Made by a program: the position numbers and the translations under genes
DNA from: Gemmatimonadaceae bacterium
Lineage (GTDB): Bacteria > Gemmatimonadota > Gemmatimonadetes > Gemmatimonadales > Gemmatimonadaceae
Length of the DNA stretch: 64,000 nt
Direction: 5' to 3'
Assembly (NCBI GenBank): GCA_013816855.1
Contig: JACDDT010000005.1
Coordinates: 2,345-66,344 of the forward strand
Part shown: one piece after another, positions 31,791-36,988 of the stretch
Position numbering within the stretch: the stretch's first letter is position 1
Layout of the letters: the number at the start of each line of letters is the position of its first letter
The notes under the pieces: model-generated
Seen by the model: the letters and a program-made list of their open reading frames with translations, nothing else
Database searches by the model: none
Told to the model about the DNA's origin: nothing

Positions 31791-32831
31791 TCAGTTGCAG
31801 ACAGGGCCAATGAGGAACCAGCATCGCGCGTAAGTAGAGCTCCGGAAAAAATCGAAAAGGATGCCGCCGACTTTTTCCTCTCCCTGCCGCGACGACCGGA
31901 GGCCCGTCGAATCAAAATCAGCGCGTACCCAGGACAACCCGTCCGCTCTCGGCTTCGCGCCATTCGCCCACAAGTATGGGCCCCAGGAAATCCAGGGCGC
32001 GCCGTTACCCGATAGTGCGACCGATCCTATATCGATATTCGGCGGCCGTCCGCGCGACTGATTGATCTGTGCCTCGATGGCCCATCTAACGACGAAGGCT
32101 GATTCATAAGACTGCGGCTCACCACCAGGATAAAAACCGCGGTAGCGTTTGCTCGAGAGAAAGAGGAGCCTGAGATTCGGGTAGCGTTCTTTGAGCGCGC
32201 GAATCGTTGAGCCGATATGCTGGAGGCCGGACGCCGCCTCAACCTGAGTAGCGGTTACAGAGAATTCAGCGGAGCTGTCGGTGAACGCCATCCAGATCAC
32301 CTGAACCTGTTTTTCGCTCAAGCCCAACGGAGCAAGGCGCGTATCGCGAATGCGATTGTAGTTGGCCGATTTGGACGATGACCACATGGCCGGGCCGATG
32401 TCACGTATCGCCCCGTTCACGATTACGAGGCTGCTGTGATTCACAGAAAGATCGGAGGTCGCCCGGCCGGCGAAGCTCCAGCTGTTGCACGGCGGCGCCG
32501 ACGAGATAGAGCACCACGCGGCGCTCACATCGCCTCCGCCCACGGACATCAACACATATCGTCCTGAAACGCTCGGCGTGCCGTTGACATCCAGCGGCTG
32601 AATTGCATTGCGGTGCGTGCGCCCAGTAGCATCGTGATCCGCGGGCTCGGTGTTCGAGCCCGAAAACAGTCCGCCACCGAGTCCCTTGTACGTGCGGGCT
32701 CCCATCTCGGCGAGCGGAATCGGAATAGTGTCGGCGCCGACGATGCGCGCGGGCACTGGAGGTGACACTGCCTTCGGCGCGCACGCAGCGAGCGCGAAGC
32801 AAGCGATTGTGAATGCGGAGATCTTTTTCAT
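31791..32831 (-). CDS. Hypothetical lipoprotein, SGNH-like fold with degenerate catalytic motifs
   Basis: Lipobox LAAC from ATG 32831 (TGATG-coupled to alkA); YPNLRLLFLSS, EPQSYES, WGPYLWA, DGLSW. Confidence 0.6.
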   Translation of the reverse strand: MKKISAFTIACFALAACAPKAVSPPVPARIVGADTIPIPLAEMGARTYKGLGGGLFSGSNTEPADHDATGRTHRNAIQPLDVNGTPSVSGRYVLMSVGGGDVSAAWCSISSAPPCNSWSFAGRATSDLSVNHSSLVIVNGAIRDIGPAMWSSSKSANYNRIRDTRLAPLGLSEKQVQVIWMAFTDSSAEFSVTATQVEAASGLQHIGSTIRALKERYPNLRLLFLSSKRYRGFYPGGEPQSYESAFVVRWAIEAQINQSRGRPPNIDIGSVALSGNGAPWISWGPYLWANGAKPRADGLSWVRADFDSTGLRSSRQGEEKVGGILFDFFRSSTYARCWFLIGPVCN

Positions 32832-33490
32832 CAACCCGTGTTCGATCGCGGCACTTTCGCCTTCGCCGGCTTGTCCACGTCGAGAAGGCGCCACAAATAC
32901 CACGAGGCGATTGTGCGATAAGGTGCCCACTTCGCGCCGACCTTTAGAACGCGCTTGGGCAGAGGATGCTTTCTCAGTTTGTATGCGAGCTTGATTCCCT
33001 TCTGAATTCCGAGATCGAGATCTGGTAAAACGTCCGGCCTGCCGAGCCGGAACATGAGGAACATCTGGGCCGTCCAGCGTCCGACACCTTTGACGGACGT
33101 GAGCGCGGCGATGATCTCATCATCAGTCAGTGCATCGAGCGAATCGATCGGGCAGTCGCCGCACTCGACACGCGTCGCGAGATCTTTTAGGTATCTTGTT
33201 TTCTGGCCGGAGAGGCCAACCGCACGCAGCTTGGCATCAGGAGTGCGAAGCAGCTCTTTCGGCTTCGGATCGCGCCCGCCGTACAGATCCTGGAGCCTGC
33301 GGTGAATGGTGCCGGCGGCCTGTCCCGATAGCTGCTGAAAAATTATCGCGCGCATCACCGCGTCGAAGTGGGTTCCCTCGGCGCGCGGCTCCAGCGCGCA
33401 CTTTCCGACCCGGTCAATCACCTCGGCCATCACCGGATCGACGTTCTTTAAATGATTGATTGCTTTTCGGTGATTCGGGGCTCGGGGCAT
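32831..33490 (-). CDS. alkA: DNA-3-methyladenine glycosylase II (HhH-GPD)
   Basis: IIFQQLS, GLSGQK, HhH SVKGVGRWTAQMFL, DVLPDLDLG, WAPYRTIASWYLW. Confidence 0.9.
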   Translation of the reverse strand: MPRAPNHRKAINHLKNVDPVMAEVIDRVGKCALEPRAEGTHFDAVMRAIIFQQLSGQAAGTIHRRLQDLYGGRDPKPKELLRTPDAKLRAVGLSGQKTRYLKDLATRVECGDCPIDSLDALTDDEIIAALTSVKGVGRWTAQMFLMFRLGRPDVLPDLDLGIQKGIKLAYKLRKHPLPKRVLKVGAKWAPYRTIASWYLWRLLDVDKPAKAKVPRSNTG

Positions 33491-33517
33491 ATCAGGAATC
33501 TACGTTATCCGTGGTGC

Positions 33518-33749
33518 TGAACTACAACTGAACGGGTGAGAGTTGTCAGAGAGCATAGTTCCCAGGTACGGGGCACTACTCGGAGACCGGTCGAGGCATG
33601 CGAGAGGGGAAACTGAACGACAGGTCGAGTAAGTAGTTCCTACCACCGGGCAACTTTCGTTACCGAGCACCCGCACCCGTTCAGTTGTAGTTCAAGATCC
33701 CGCCCCGTTGATTCACCGCCGCAAACCTGCACCCGTTCGGTTGTAGTTC
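33518..33749 (+). repeat. Structured palindromic element: 21-bp perfect inverted repeats (33518-33538 / 33674-33694) plus a third copy (33729-33749)
   Basis: TGAACTACAACTGAACGGGTG and its exact reverse complement; third copy 20/21 identical to the second; internal helices with G-U pairs. Confidence 0.85.
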
Positions 33750-33768
33750 TAAATCCTATATTAGGTAC

Positions 33769-35202
33769 ATGCCGCCGCCCCCCGGCCTCTCCCCCGAAGA
33801 GTTCCGCGCCCACGCCCACGATGTCGTCGATTGGATCGCCGATTATCTCGCTCAGCCCGGCAAATGGCCCGTCCTTCCGGATGTCCGTCCCGGCGAGACC
33901 ACTGCGAGGCTTCCCGCTTCGCCGCCGGCCAACGGCGAGAAGATGGAAACGATTCTCGCGGATTTCCGCGACATAATCGTGCCTGCCACGACGCACTGGA
34001 ATCATCCGGACTTTCTCGCGTACTTCGCGAATACCGGAACCGGCGAGGGCGTTATCGGAGAAATGCTCGCTGCCGCGCTGAACGTGAACGCGATGTTGTG
34101 GAAGACGGGCCCGGCGCAAACGGAGCTTGAAGCGCACACGCTCGATTGGCTCCGGCAAATGATGGGACTCGCGGCCGATTTTACGGGAACGATCACCGAC
34201 ACTGCATCATCGAGCACGCTTTACGCTCTCGCGGCAGCACGCGAAATGCGGCCTGAGCTTAGGCTGCGTGAAATGGGAATGTCTGGACGCGATCTTCCCC
34301 GCCTTCTCGTATACGCGTCGGAGGAAGCGCACTCCAGCATCGACAAAGCCGTAATGACCCTTGGCTTCGGCCGAGAAAGTCTTCGCAAGGTTCCGACGGA
34401 CTCCGACCTCGCAATGGATGCGTCCGCGCTGGAACGGATGATTTTCGAGGACAAAAAAAGCGGAGCGGTCCCGCTCGCCATCGTCGCTTGCGTGGGCACC
34501 ACCTCCACGACCGCGATCGATCCGGTACGTGCGATAGCGGAGATCGCGTCGCGGGAAAATATCTGGCTGCATGTGGATGCCGCGTACGGAGGGAGCGCCG
34601 CAATCCTTCCTGAGATGCAGTACATCCTCGACGGCTCCGACCGTGCCGACTCACTAGTCGTGAACCCGCACAAGTGGCTGCTTACGCCGATGGACTGCTC
34701 GGTGCTGTTCACGCGGCGCCCTGACTTATTGAAGCGCGCGTTTCAGATTGTCCCCGATATCCTCACAGTTACCGAGCCCGACTCGGTCGTCAATCTCATG
34801 GACTATGGCATCGCGCTCGGCAGACGCTTCCGCGCGCTCAAGCTCTGGATGGTGATCCGCTCGTATGGAGTCGAAGGGCTGGCGTCCGTAGTCCGGGAGC
34901 ACATACGCCTCGCCGCCGAGCTCGCGGCGGCCGTCGAGACCGCACCGGAATTCGAGCTCCTTGCAAGACCGAAGTTCTCCACCGTCGTCTTCCGGTCCAA
35001 TCGCGGAGGCACGCCCGCGGAGGTCAATGAACACAACCGCCGCGTCGTTGAGGCCGTGAATGCCACACGAAAGACATTCATCTCCCATACGACCGTACGC
35101 GGTATGTACGCCATCCGTATCGCTATCGGCAATCTGAATACGGGCGCGGAGAATGTCGAGCGGGCGTGGGACATCATCCGGAAAACCGCGTCCAAAATTT
35201 GA
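33769..35202 (+). CDS. PLP-dependent group II (aromatic amino acid-like) decarboxylase
   Basis: THWNHPDFLAYF, AHSSIDKA, WLHVDAAYGG, DSLVVNPHKW (PLP lysine), LGRRFRALKLW. Confidence 0.92.
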   Translation: MPPPPGLSPEEFRAHAHDVVDWIADYLAQPGKWPVLPDVRPGETTARLPASPPANGEKMETILADFRDIIVPATTHWNHPDFLAYFANTGTGEGVIGEMLAAALNVNAMLWKTGPAQTELEAHTLDWLRQMMGLAADFTGTITDTASSSTLYALAAAREMRPELRLREMGMSGRDLPRLLVYASEEAHSSIDKAVMTLGFGRESLRKVPTDSDLAMDASALERMIFEDKKSGAVPLAIVACVGTTSTTAIDPVRAIAEIASRENIWLHVDAAYGGSAAILPEMQYILDGSDRADSLVVNPHKWLLTPMDCSVLFTRRPDLLKRAFQIVPDILTVTEPDSVVNLMDYGIALGRRFRALKLWMVIRSYGVEGLASVVREHIRLAAELAAAVETAPEFELLARPKFSTVVFRSNRGGTPAEVNEHNRRVVEAVNATRKTFISHTTVRGMYAIRIAIGNLNTGAENVERAWDIIRKTASKI

Positions 35203-35285: not shown

Positions 35286-36782
35286 TTGATGAATTTTCTC
35301 TCAATGCGGCGCATCACCGTTCTCGCGTCCCTCGTTGTCGCCATGCCGGCAGTGGCGCAAATGCCCGCCGGCTGCGATCCGATAGGCAGCGTTAGCGGTG
35401 CCATCGGCAAGGCCCAGTTCTCGATGCAGCGTGCAGTCTCCGCCGTGCAGGGCAATGCGAACGCGACGAAGGATCTTCAGGAAGTCGTGAAGGGACTCGC
35501 AGATCAGCAGACCGACAATCCGCTCGCGCGGAATTACATCCTCGGCGAAGCGTACATCTTGCTGCTGACGCAGCCGGGCATTTCGATCGAATCGCCACGC
35601 AGCGCGCTCGGATTTACCACTAACCCGACGGCGACGATCAATGTTTTCGCTGCAGCGGACTCGGCATTCAATGTTGTCGAGAAGCTGGCTCCTGCTTGCG
35701 TCCCGCTCACCAACCAGTGGCGCCAAAACAAATCGTGGATGAACTCGCTGAACGCGGCGTTCAATGCACTCAATGCCGGCAATCTCGATTCGGCGACGCT
35801 CTACGCGAACCGCGCGCTCCTCATCGAGCACCGGACGCCGTACGCCTACTCGGTACTTGGCTCCGCCGCAGCGCAGCGCAAGGATCTCACAACCGCGAAT
35901 CAGTACTGGGAAAAGGTGCTTGCCGCTGCAGGCACTGACAGCACCTACGCGGATGTTAAGCTACGGACCATGTTCGAAATGGCAGACGTGCTTTCATCCG
36001 CCGCCAGCCGTGCAACGGGCGTGGACAAAGCCCGCTCCGCAAAGCAGGCGATCGCTGCCTGGCAGTCGTATATGGGCGCGACCAACGACGACTATCGCGT
36101 CGCCGAGACTCTCGATCGACTTGTCACTCTCTACAAGGTTGCGGGTGACAGCATTTCGATTCCCACTATCTACGCTGCGATTCTTGCCAATCCCGGAAAA
36201 TACGGTGAAAACACGCTCATCCATGCCGGTGTCGCCGCCACTCGCGCCGGGAAGCCGCGCGACGCGATGATGCTTCTCGAGGCGGCGCGTCTCGCCAATC
36301 CGTACTCCCGTGACGCGCTGTACAACCTGGCACTCACTTACTTTGGGACGGACCAGCCCGCCAAGATGTTCCCGCTCGTCAAGGCGATCACCACCATGGA
36401 TCCGAGTAATCCCGAGAATCAATTGCTCAACGCGTTCGCCTATCAGTCGCTGTACAAAACCACGAAAGATGCGAAGCTGAAGAAGATTTACACGGACTCT
36501 CTCATTTACTTCAACAATCTGGCCGAGAACGGCCCAGTGAAGGTGACTATCACCGATTTCCTCCGCGGCGACAAGGAAACAACACTAGGTGGGACGATCG
36601 AGAACCGTTCTGCTACGCCAAAGAGCTTTTCGCTGGCGGTTGAATTCGTGGACAAGACGGGAGCAGTGGTAGGCTCGCAGGAGATTCCGGTCGGACCCGT
36701 TGCAGCGAAGTCCGCGCAGAAGTTCAAACTTACGATTCCGAAAGGTGGGGTTTACGGCTTCAGGTACAAACCCCTGATGTAA
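35286..36782 (+). CDS. Secreted TPR protein with C-terminal FxLYD-like domain
   Basis: Signal peptide ending AVAQ; TPR helices (DALYNLALTY); GTIENRS...VEFVDKTG; AGGAG RBS. Confidence 0.75.
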   Translation: MMNFLSMRRITVLASLVVAMPAVAQMPAGCDPIGSVSGAIGKAQFSMQRAVSAVQGNANATKDLQEVVKGLADQQTDNPLARNYILGEAYILLLTQPGISIESPRSALGFTTNPTATINVFAAADSAFNVVEKLAPACVPLTNQWRQNKSWMNSLNAAFNALNAGNLDSATLYANRALLIEHRTPYAYSVLGSAAAQRKDLTTANQYWEKVLAAAGTDSTYADVKLRTMFEMADVLSSAASRATGVDKARSAKQAIAAWQSYMGATNDDYRVAETLDRLVTLYKVAGDSISIPTIYAAILANPGKYGENTLIHAGVAATRAGKPRDAMMLLEAARLANPYSRDALYNLALTYFGTDQPAKMFPLVKAITTMDPSNPENQLLNAFAYQSLYKTTKDAKLKKIYTDSLIYFNNLAENGPVKVTITDFLRGDKETTLGGTIENRSATPKSFSLAVEFVDKTGAVVGSQEIPVGPVAAKSAQKFKLTIPKGGVYGFRYKPLM

Positions 36783-36988
36783 CGATGACTGCAAAACTGG
36801 AAACGTTCCGCGCTCCCCGCGGAAAACGTTTCCGGGTTTCCCGTTTATACAAAGGCCGTTCTATTGCGCCGAGTGCGCGTGGAACGGTCTTTCGTTTTCC
36901 AAACCGGCAACGGGCAACGTTCGTTACCGGGAACGCGGAACGTGTTCAGTTCGCAGTTCGCAGTTCGCAGTTCGCAGTTCGCAGTTCC
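36781..36988. repeat. Heptamer-rich palindromic intergenic element including (CAGTTCG)x5.9 at 36947-36987
   Basis: Tandem 7-mers read directly; three hairpins at 36799-36833, 36851-36892 and 36904-36930. Confidence 0.88.

What the first reader, a model, noticed from the sequence alone, without database searches (positions are those of the whole stretch)
33518..33749. 177-nt rod-like structured element between divergent alkA and decarboxylase promoters
Seen: a perfect 21-bp terminal inverted repeat, then nested helices 33539-47/33649-57 (two G-U pairs), 33565-82/33626-44 and 33586-93/33618-25, with asymmetric loops, and a third repeat copy at 33729-49. The G-U pairs favour a plus-strand RNA. 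The motif CACCCGTTCRGTTGTAGTTC also lies just upstream of both divergent -10 boxes in the same relative orientation. No target duplication is visible. Inference: an unannotated ncRNA, a MITE/REP-like element, or shared operator sites.
Basis: partly seen in the sequence, partly recalled or inferred. Interest (0 to 1): 0.65.

Follow-up and report, generated by a model that had tools for sequence, protein, structure and literature searches.

The report
Gene-less copy of a hairpin repeat element
The 177-base palindrome between the two divergent genes is one gene-less copy of a repeat family that has spread through the gaps between genes in one genus of soil Gemmatimonadaceae; its full-length relatives carry a small four-helix-bundle gene of the kind known from ribosomal-RNA intervening sequences, so it is most likely a selfish insert and not a dedicated regulator of its neighbours.

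Summary
There is a perfect 21-bp inverted repeat (33518-38 / 33674-94), a rod-like fold (z about -6 on both strands) and a third end copy at 33730-49.

It is not single copy. The same genome holds at least 9 diverged full-length copies. Congeners hold 0 to 113 copies of the end motif AACTGCAACTGAAC (controls 0-3). Outside the genus the count is at chance level.

The closest relative has an empty site here (about 95-nt spacer). Three further orthologous sites differ between the two species: one filled/empty, one empty/filled, one re-used by another subfamily.

The arms are homologous to the arms that bracket PF05635/TIGR02436 four-helix-bundle genes ("23S rRNA IVS protein"). 20 of 21 such genes in six genomes of the genus lie inside 510-730-nt hairpins.

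Base pairing is kept by compensatory changes, with no bias for either RNA strand. I found no Rfam match, no target duplication, no transposase partner and no RAYT.

Verdict: a MITE-like, gene-less member of an IVS-like hairpin-cassette family. Its way of moving is unknown. The ncRNA and operator readings are not supported. The scan has reported this cassette class on other genomes. This genus adds shared arms and filled/empty sites.

The parts
33518..33694 (.). 177-nt gene-less hairpin element (imperfect palindrome). It is a member of the genus-wide family with ends AACTGCAACTGAACGGGTG...
   Evidence: The family profile matches it end to end (E 2.5e-14). It aligns with 31 copies from five other genomes.
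33518..33538 (+). Left terminal inverted repeat, TGAACTACAACTGAACGGGTG.
33674..33694 (+). Right terminal inverted repeat, CACCCGTTCAGTTGTAGTTCA. It is a perfect complement of the left one.
33725..33756 (+). Extra direct copy of the right end (core 33730-33749), 56 nt after the first. Extra end copies recur in the family, with a period of 51-52 nt in G021 and 23-29 nt in G017.
   Evidence: (D1, 88%).
32831..33490 (-).
   Evidence: PF00730, 1.1e-12. Orthologues are listed.
33769..35202 (+). Flanking gene: pyridoxal-dependent decarboxylase, 477 aa.
   Evidence: PF00282, 3.2e-97.
33757..33762 (+). TATATT -10-like box 6 nt before the decarboxylase ATG. CTATATT is conserved at this position in relatives that lack the element.
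33497..33502 (-). TAGATT -10-like box 6 nt before the glycosylase ATG. AATCTAC is shared with the two closest relatives.
   Evidence: read directly from the sequence.
36781..36988 (.). Second gene-less family member in the window, of another subfamily. Its right end is GTTCAGTT(CGCAGTT)x5. Its arms are 70-88% identical to the arms of the PF05635-bearing element at G000:C113:26557-27135.

Best explanation
The 177-nt rod is a gene-less (miniature) copy of a lineage-specific family of foldback elements. Full-length members are 510-730 nt and carry a single gene at the hairpin tip. That gene encodes a PF05635/TIGR02436 four-helix-bundle protein, the family first found in the intervening sequences (IVS) of 23S rRNA and related to the Avd protein of diversity-generating retroelements (the relation to Avd is from established knowledge and PMC10053308).

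Shown: the copy in the window arrived after the split from the closest sampled relatives. It pushed the two divergent promoters about 180-230 bp apart, and it carries an extra duplicated right end.

Shown: the family is multi-copy, confined to this genus among the genomes sampled, always intergenic, variably present at orthologous sites, and keeps its stem through compensatory changes.

Inferred: the conserved AACTGCAACTGAAC ends are the cis-acting sites. A folded hairpin, as single-stranded DNA or as RNA, is needed in the element's life cycle. Gene-less copies depend on a factor supplied in trans, and the encoded four-helix-bundle protein is the obvious candidate, since no recombinase is linked.

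Inferred: when read through, the stem would be an RNase III substrate, as in rRNA IVSs. That would uncouple the insert from its host transcript.

Any effect on the glycosylase and decarboxylase genes is probably incidental.
For: Multi-copy and dispersed.
- One search finds matches to the terminal 45 nt in 10 of 24 congeners, often as inverted pairs about 150 nt apart.
- One search counts 19-97 end cores per genome (controls 0-1).
- One search finds 9 full-length copies in the own genome at E<1e-5, plus 2 weaker ones.
- One search counts 0-113 end motifs in each of 109 congeners.
- One search finds chance-level counts in 245 genomes of other genera. The one exception has 8 copies of a variant motif.

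Insertion polymorphism.
- the closest relatives L027 and L028 have an about 95-nt spacer without the element.
- G000:C95:19197-19398 is filled in this genome, against a 24-nt spacer in G055.
- a neighbouring site is empty in this genome and filled in G055.
- one site is filled in both species, but by different subfamilies.

Link to PF05635.
- one G021 copy has a 129-aa ORF at its apex.
- that ORF matches TIGR02436 at 1.3e-28 and PDB entries 2GSC and 2RLD.
- the profile built from gene-less copies hits both flanks of PF05635 genes in G009, G012 and G021, and in the own genome on contigs C11 and C117.
- 20 of 21 PF05635 genes in six genomes lie between inverted repeats of 16-191 nt (most 40-90) at 83-100% identity.
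- the arms of the ORF-bearing copy are 72-91% identical to those of gene-less copies in the same genome.
- the window's two elements match the arms of own-genome PF05635 elements at 63-88%.
- across other genera, 18 of 26 PF05635 loci have flanking inverted repeats, against 0 of 60 random sites.
- cyanobacterial plasmids show the same layout.

Structure constraint.
- 9 of 31 pairs show compensatory change.
- 94.5% of cells are paired against 87.2% in shuffles, with 74 double-change cells against 33 (0 of 500 shuffles reach this). Slid controls give 32-39% paired.

Context.
- all 12 own-genome copies are intergenic, 0-48 nt from a neighbouring gene, in every orientation class.
Against: - No movement was observed directly, and there are no near-identical copies. 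Within-genome identity has a median of about 74% and a maximum of 94%. The family may be old or inactive in this genome.
- No target-site duplication was found, and no enzyme is known that could move it. A four-helix bundle has no known recombinase or nuclease activity.
- The match between the window copy and an own-genome PF05635 element is only 63-78% and includes a 7-nt indel in the end. The link is strongest in other genomes.
- All genomes are MAGs, many of them fragmented, so a transposase-bearing parent could be unassembled.
- Relatedness among copies inflates covariation statistics.
Confidence: 0.76

Rival explanations
1. It is an ordinary MITE. On this reading it is a deletion derivative of a DDE-type (or other recombinase) insertion sequence with the same terminal repeats, mobilised in trans by that transposase, and the PF05635 gene in the longer copies is only a passenger.
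For: - The element has terminal inverted repeats, is small, multi-copy and insertion-polymorphic.
- The window copy ends in 5'-TG...CA-3'.
- Extra sub-terminal end copies recall the multiple transposase-binding sites of Tn7, Mu and IS21 (from established knowledge).
- MAG assemblies break at insertion sequences, so a parent could be missing.
Against: - No target-site duplication is seen at any copy, nor at four filled/empty comparisons.
- In the listed end positions of G009, G017 and G021 (complete or nearly so) and the 100 of 128 listed for G082 (98% complete, 20 contigs), no plus/minus end pair lies 0.7-4 kb apart. The only long pair, 700 nt in G021, is the PF05635 carrier.
- The TG...CA ends are not conserved in the family.
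- 20 of 21 PF05635 genes are hairpin-enclosed whatever the arm sequence, and the same holds in other phyla. A passenger would not be the only and constant cargo.
Confidence: 0.1
2. It is a structured non-coding RNA gene family. The rod would be the functional product, either an sRNA or a cis-acting RNA such as a processing site, insulator or terminator, kept at many loci because the host uses it.
For: - The fold is strong (z about -6).
- The stem is kept by compensatory changes.
- Many copies sit tightly inside probable operons, 0-21 nt from the stop and start codons, where they must be transcribed.
- rRNA IVS stems are cut by RNase III (PMC4990558).
Against: - There is no Rfam match at E<=10. 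In relatives the only hits are to a plant miRNA hairpin model, on both strands and far below threshold.
- Both strands fold equally well.
- There is no G-U strand bias in 19 ORF-bearing elements, 64 sense against 87 antisense, p = 0.07.
- Presence at orthologous sites varies between sister species.
- Copy number runs from 0 to 113 within one genus, which is not expected of a host function.
Confidence: 0.08
3. The three 20-mers are shared operator sites of a transcription factor that co-regulates the divergent glycosylase and decarboxylase genes.
For: The motif lies just upstream of both -10-like boxes, reading outward on both sides.
Against: - The outward symmetry follows from the motif being a terminal inverted repeat.
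- The spacings to the -10 boxes differ: 16 nt on one side and 7 nt on the other.
- Relatives keep the gene pair and the CTATATT box without the motif.
- The same motif occurs at tens of unrelated intergenic sites, including sites between convergent genes.
Confidence: 0.02
4. The elements are not mobile. On this reading the hairpins arise locally by slippage and inverted duplication, and they look alike through convergence or gene conversion among copies.
For: - The ends are built from hexamer and heptamer units that expand by slippage. Examples are (CGCAGTT)x5 at 36941-36985 and (AACTGC)x~11 in G082.
- In other genera the arms are pure heptamer arrays that differ from copy to copy.
Against: - About 190 nt of complex, non-repetitive sequence, including a conserved central hairpin, is shared by 31 copies from five genomes at unrelated loci.
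- Orthologous sites are cleanly filled or empty.
Confidence: 0.04

Closest known systems
ORF-bearing intervening sequences (IVS) of 23S rRNA, with an S23p/PF05635 ORF (Leptospira; Coxiella burnetii, PMC4990558)
   Same: Full-length relatives have the same design: a PF05635 gene in the loop of a long stem formed by terminal inverted repeats. They have no recombinase and no target duplication. IVSs have been suspected since 1993 to be selfish or mobile (as cited in PMC4990558).
   Different: This copy has no ORF. The family sits between protein-coding genes and not in 23S rRNA. The own genome's partial 23S, covering model positions 15-2044, has no insert. The arms are about 80 nt of complex sequence. 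Gene-less copies outnumber ORF-bearing ones roughly ten to one.
Bacterial MITEs and imperfect-palindrome repeats (Correia elements of Neisseria, ERIC/IRU of enterobacteria, RUP of Streptococcus; reviewed in PMC10969869)
   Same: They are 100-200 nt long, have terminal inverted repeats, fold into a rod, lie between genes, are multi-copy, and are variably present between related genomes.
   Different: No TA or other target duplication was found, and no transposase-encoding parent. The only longer relatives carry a four-helix-bundle gene. The ends are often reiterated 2-3 times.
REPIN-RAYT systems
   Same: Both are inverted-repeat doublets that form hairpins, spread between genes, and depend on a factor supplied in trans.
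   Different: No Y1/RAYT gene was found in this 95%-complete genome. The repeat unit is not itself a short palindrome. The candidate trans factor is encoded inside the element.
Heptamer tandem repeats of bacteria: cyanobacterial STRR, TAACTGA repeats (PMC4679880) and GGGNATC repeats (PMC4692102)
   Same: The ends are built from AACTGC, AACTGA or TAACTGC units. One copy in the window carries (CGCAGTT)x5. PF05635 genes in other Gemmatimonadota and in cyanobacterial plasmids are flanked by inverted heptamer arrays.
   Different: In this subfamily only the outermost 12-14 nt are unit-phased, and the rest of the arm is unique sequence. The papers named do not link the repeats to PF05635.
Avd, the accessory protein of diversity-generating retroelements (PF05635 relative; PMC10053308)
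   Same: It has the same protein fold family as the cargo of the full-length elements, and it binds nucleic acid together with a partner enzyme.
   Different: No reverse transcriptase or template/variable repeat pair is linked here. The relation bears on the cargo protein only.

Membership tests
Bacterial MITE (non-autonomous DNA transposon) | Terminal inverted repeats | tested here: met
   21/21 perfect at 33518-38 / 33674-94. The repeats are conserved across 32 aligned copies.
Bacterial MITE (non-autonomous DNA transposon) | Small, non-coding, multi-copy and dispersed | tested here: met
   The element is 177 nt. There are 9 or more copies in the own genome and up to 113 end motifs per congener.
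Bacterial MITE (non-autonomous DNA transposon) | Filled and empty orthologous sites | tested here: met
   One search covers this locus. Searches cover three further sites compared between G000 and G055.
Bacterial MITE (non-autonomous DNA transposon) | Target-site duplication | tested here: not met
   No duplication is seen at 13 printed copies nor at the filled/empty comparisons. Spacer divergence limits the precision of this test.
Bacterial MITE (non-autonomous DNA transposon) | Autonomous partner with the same ends that encodes a transposase | tested here: not met
   The only longer elements with these ends carry PF05635. No end pairs lie 0.7-4 kb apart in four genomes. The genomes are MAGs, so absence is not proven.
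23S rRNA intervening sequence (S23p type) | Inserted in helix 25 or helix 45 of 23S rRNA | tested here: not met
   The element lies between protein-coding genes. In the own genome's 23S rRNA, model positions 15-2044 span 2051 nt, so there is no insert.
23S rRNA intervening sequence (S23p type) | Long stem formed by terminal inverted repeats | tested here: met
23S rRNA intervening sequence (S23p type) | PF05635 ORF in the loop | tested here: not met
   This copy has no such ORF. Full-length relatives do have one.
23S rRNA intervening sequence (S23p type) | Excision from the transcript by RNase III | not testable with these tools
This needs RNA data or an in vitro assay.
PF05635 hairpin cassette and its gene-less miniatures (a class reported by this scan on other genomes) | Arms homologous to arms that flank a PF05635 gene | tested here: met
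   nhmmer, both flanks, E down to 1e-19; 72-91% identity within G021; 63-88% within the own genome.
PF05635 hairpin cassette and its gene-less miniatures (a class reported by this scan on other genomes) | Arms made of inverted tandem heptamer arrays | tested here: inconclusive
   Only the outer AACTGC/AACTGA units are phased. The sister element at 36781-36988 has (CGCAGTT)x5. Other genera have pure heptamer arms.
REP/REPIN with RAYT | A Y1 (RAYT) transposase gene in the genome | tested here: not met
   PF01797 has no match in the 95%-complete genome.
Rfam RNA families, including 6S RNA | Match to a curated covariance model | tested here: not met
   There are no matches at E<=10 over 33300-33950. 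In relatives the only hit is a both-strand hit to MIR8622 at 54 bits, against a gathering score of 197.
CRISPR array (considered because of the 51-56-nt periodic end copies) | Identical repeats separated by unique spacers | tested here: not met
   There are only 2-3 units, and the 'spacers' are conserved between loci of one genome.

The most novel reading that the evidence does not exclude
The PF05635 four-helix-bundle protein would itself be the trans-acting factor, alone or with a host nuclease or polymerase, that propagates hairpin elements bounded by AACTGC-type unit repeats. That would be a mobility system without any known recombinase class. The gene-less 177-nt copies would be its non-autonomous riders, and 23S rRNA intervening sequences and the unexplained heptamer repeats of many bacteria would be products of the same machinery.
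Probability: 0.25. Interest if true: 0.9.

Novelty: new variant of a known kind. Interest (0 to 1): 0.6.

Why it matters
The origin of 23S rRNA intervening sequences and the role of their S23p/PF05635 protein have been open since the early 1990s. The idea that the ORF serves mobility (Ralph and McClelland 1993, as cited in PMC4990558) has lacked genomic evidence.

This genus supplies the kind of evidence that classically identifies a mobile family:
- one set of complex arms shared by ORF-bearing and many gene-less copies in the same genome;
- copy numbers from 0 to more than 100 among congeners;
- reciprocal filled and empty orthologous sites between sister species;
- one site re-used by a different subfamily.

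This gives a concrete cis sequence (AACTGCAACTGAAC plus a stem) and a concrete candidate protein to test together.

In practical terms, such elements break MAG assemblies. They can also be mistaken for ncRNAs, operators, terminators or small CRISPR arrays.

Tried and rejected
- **Exact 20-mer search in the own genome**. It found only the three local copies plus three weak ones, which would have suggested a single-copy feature. A profile search overturned this.
- **Rfam.** The locus gave nothing. Seven relatives' loci gave only sub-threshold, both-strand hits to a plant miRNA hairpin model.
- **G-U strand-bias test** on 19 ORF-bearing elements, to detect an RNA-level strand. It gave 64 against 87, not significant, so there is no support for a plus-strand RNA.
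- **Promoter donation by the element end.** There is no conserved spacing between the end and the -10 boxes or start codons at five gene-start-adjacent copies.
- **Target-site duplication.** None was seen.
- **Search for a transposase-size parent.** No plus/minus end pairs lie 0.7-4 kb apart in G009, G017, G021 or G082. The contig-end copies C110/C72 turned out to be another gene-less copy next to a SpoU-like gene, not an insertion sequence.
- **RAYT/IS200 link.** PF01797 is not found.
- **CRISPR-like reading of the periodic end copies.** Rejected, because the inter-repeat segments are conserved between loci.
- **IVS in the own 23S rRNA.** None in the assembled part.
- **Literature.** No paper in the held library links PF05635 to heptamer or inverted arms, or to gene-less miniatures.
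I therefore ran neither the RNA test nor the population-read test, and did not use read laying.

Full report
**1. Observation**

The sequence is as described. TGAACTACAACTGAACGGGTG at 33518-33538 is the perfect reverse complement of 33674-33694. The complementarity continues imperfectly to 63 nt per arm at 73%.

A third copy of the 20-mer lies at 33730-33749 with one change. It belongs to a 32-nt direct repeat at 88% identity with a 56-nt period. The 20-mer with up to 3 mismatches is expected 0.01 times in the window and occurs three times, all here.

The 177-mer folds into a single rod. The plus strand gives -76.7 kcal/mol (z = -6.15) and the minus strand gives -80.2 kcal/mol (z = -6.74).

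The flanking genes are an HhH-GPD glycosylase (32831-33490, minus strand) and a pyridoxal-dependent decarboxylase (33769-35202, plus strand). Rfam gives nothing at E<=10.

**2. It is a repeat family, not a single-copy feature**

The organism is a Gemmatimonadaceae MAG of 2.47 Mb in 170 contigs, 95% complete. The exact 20-mer occurs only at this locus.

A BLAST of the spacer against 24 congeners matched the terminal 45 nt many times in 10 of them, often as inverted pairs about 150 nt apart. Thirty-one distinct copies from five genomes align over their full 180-197 nt. Their consensus ends are AACTGCAACTGAACGGGTGCGAG..GTCAG on the left and the complement on the right. They also share conserved inner boxes and a short central hairpin.

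A profile built from these copies finds further members in the window's own genome:
- 9 full-length copies at E<1e-5;
- 2 weaker copies;
- matches to two longer elements.

Counts of the terminal 14-mer AACTGCAACTGAAC (up to 1 mismatch) run from 0 to 113 per genome in 109 congeners. The reversed-pattern controls give 0-3. In 245 genomes of 105 other genera of the phylum the count is at control level, except for one genome with 8 copies of a variant.

Copies within a genome are diverged, with a median identity of about 74% and a maximum of 94%.

**3. Extra end copies**

Many copies carry one to three additional direct copies of an end. The period is 51-52 nt in G021, 23-29 nt in G017, and 56 nt here.

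**4. Insertion polymorphism**

Orthologous glycosylase-decarboxylase pairs exist in many congeners. The two closest, at 81-83% protein identity, have a spacer of about 95 nt. They share the AATCTAC and CCTATATTAGG boxes with the window, but they have no element.

I compared three more sites with the closest relative, G055:
- G000:C95:19197-19398 is filled here, against a 24-nt spacer in G055.
- A neighbouring convergent-gene spacer is empty here, holding only a small terminator-like hairpin. In G055 it holds a 229-nt element.
- G000:C66:3759-3947 is filled in both species, but by elements of different subfamilies. This means the site was re-used or the resident element was replaced.

G055 has 53 end motifs elsewhere in its genome. 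No target-site duplication is visible at any of these sites or at the printed copies.

**5. The longer relatives carry one gene**

One G021 copy has about 450 nt inserted at the hairpin tip. The insert encodes a 129-aa protein. It matches TIGR02436 "four helix bundle protein" at 1.3e-28 and the solved structures 2GSC and 2RLD. This is Pfam PF05635, the 23S rRNA intervening-sequence protein.

The profile made only from gene-less copies hits both flanks of PF05635 genes in G009, G012 and G021. It also hits both flanks in the window's own genome, on contigs C11 and C117.

Twenty of 21 PF05635 genes in six genomes of the genus lie between inverted repeats that span 510-730 nt. Most of these repeats are 40-90 nt long and 83-97% identical. 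Many of these elements end in AACTGCAAC-type units even when the rest of the arm differs.

Three comparisons tie the two forms together:
- In G021 the arms of the ORF-bearing copy are 72-91% identical to those of the gene-less copies.
- The window's element matches the arms of the C117 element at 63-78%.
- The second element in the window (36781-36988) matches the C113 element at 70-88%.

The own genome has 8 PF05635 genes.

**6. Generality**

PF05635 occurs in 83 of 121 sampled Gemmatimonadota, with up to 13 copies per genome. In other genera, 18 of 26 testable loci have flanking inverted repeats at E<1e-4, against 0 of 60 random sites. There the arms are inverted arrays of tandem heptamers, with a different heptamer for each copy.

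Six cyanobacterial plasmid loci show heptamer arrays around the gene. In four of them the arrays are clearly inverted. In three of the six the gene is wedged inside a cas operon. That fits the earlier report of this family in cas loci (PMC3936711).

**7. Structure constraint**

RNAalifold keeps 31 pairs, and 9 of them show compensatory double changes. On that structure 94.5% of cells pair, against 87.2% in column shuffles. There are 74 double-change cells against 33, and 0 of 500 shuffles reach this. Slid controls pair at 32-39%.

Relatedness among copies inflates such figures. Even so, very different subfamilies in the own genome each fold into their own rod, at -63 to -129 kcal/mol.

Mismatches in the stems of 19 ORF-bearing elements show no excess of G-U on the sense strand, with 64 against 87 and p = 0.07. 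The need for a hairpin is therefore supported. Whether the hairpin forms in RNA or in single-stranded DNA is open.

**8. Context**

All 12 copies in the own genome are intergenic and lie 0-48 nt from a neighbouring gene. They sit between divergent, convergent and same-strand genes. Their ends have no fixed spacing to -10-like boxes or start codons. This argues against operator or promoter roles.

**9. What it is not**

- No Y1/RAYT transposase gene was found.
- No end pairs lie 0.7-4 kb apart that could bound an insertion sequence, in four genomes including a 20-contig one.
- The assembled part of the own 23S rRNA has no insert.
- It is not a CRISPR array, because the inter-repeat segments are conserved between loci.

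**10. Mechanism**

Shown: this is a dispersed, genus-restricted, insertion-polymorphic foldback family. Its gene-less form is propagated as such, because the same central sequence is found in copies from several species. Its longer form carries only a PF05635 gene.

Inferred: the unit-phased ends are the cis sites, a hairpin intermediate is required, and a trans factor is needed. The encoded pentameric, nucleic-acid-binding four-helix bundle is the candidate for that factor. Its properties are known from the Xanthomonas structure and from the Avd protein of diversity-generating retroelements (PMC4990558, PMC10053308). By analogy with rRNA intervening sequences (PMC4990558), read-through transcripts would be cut at the stem by RNase III.

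The local consequence in the window is that two overlapping divergent promoters were moved about 180-230 bp apart.

**11. Known relatives and novelty**

The closest described things are:
- S23p-bearing 23S rRNA intervening sequences, described as selfish and proposed to be mobile (PMC4990558);
- bacterial MITEs (PMC10969869);
- unexplained heptamer repeats (PMC4679880, PMC4692102).

I found no paper in the held library that joins these.

The scan's own notes show that the PF05635 hairpin cassette, and gene-less miniatures of it, were reported many times on other genomes. I reached the link, before reading those notes. A later check on one of those notes listed three weak points: copies in one genome did not share arms, filled/empty sites were known from one genus only, and no movement had been seen. 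This genus bears on the first two directly.

**12. Limits**

All genomes are MAGs. No enzyme or mechanism of movement is shown.

Noticed in passing
window 36781-36988: A second gene-less hairpin element lies between convergent genes. Its right end is GTTCAGTT(CGCAGTT)x5. Its arms are 70-88% identical to the arms of the PF05635-bearing element at G000:C113:26557-27135, and it is the same subfamily as the copy at the C110/C72 contig junction.
   Followed up: partly
window 33750-33771, and orthologous loci L027-L135: A CTATATT box 6-8 nt before the decarboxylase ATG is conserved across the genus, and a TAGATT or TATATT box lies similarly close to the glycosylase ATG. PF05635 genes also start 3-7 nt after -10-like hexamers. 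Leaderless mRNAs seem common in this lineage.
   Followed up: no
G000:C66:3759-3947 versus G055:C294:7632-7828 (L214, L228): The same orthologous gene junction is occupied in the two species by elements of different subfamilies. The G055 copy is 70% like the G000 copy on contig C95. This suggests repeated insertion at one site, or replacement of a resident copy, and it may explain the reiterated ends.
   Followed up: partly
G082:C1:13686-13747, C1:151472-151540, C5:550377-550500: Some minimal elements of 44-55 nt consist of two ends back to back. An (AACTGC)x~11 hexamer array also abuts one end. The end units evidently expand by slippage.
   Followed up: no
G055:C158 (L222 about 2770-2998): The element end reads TAACTGC-TAACTGC-AACCGAG directly after a TAA stop codon. 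The unit resembles the TAACTGA heptamer repeats described in Beggiatoaceae, Cyanobacteria and Bacteroidetes (PMC4679880).
   Followed up: no
L208, L210, L211 (cyanobacterial plasmids NZ_CP112875, NZ_CP016476, NC_019429): Four-helix-bundle genes with heptamer arms are wedged between cas6 and cas4, or between cas10 and cmr3. Published 'CRISPR association' of 23S_rRNA_IVP (PMC3936711, PMC10910872) may reflect selfish insertion into operons, or periodic arms being read as arrays.
   Followed up: partly
G000:C110:32127-32253 and C72:1-127 (L006, L005): The two contigs overlap by 127 nt, and the overlap includes the left end of an element copy. The repeat family contributes to assembly breaks in these MAGs, and many copies in congeners lie at contig ends.
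   Followed up: partly
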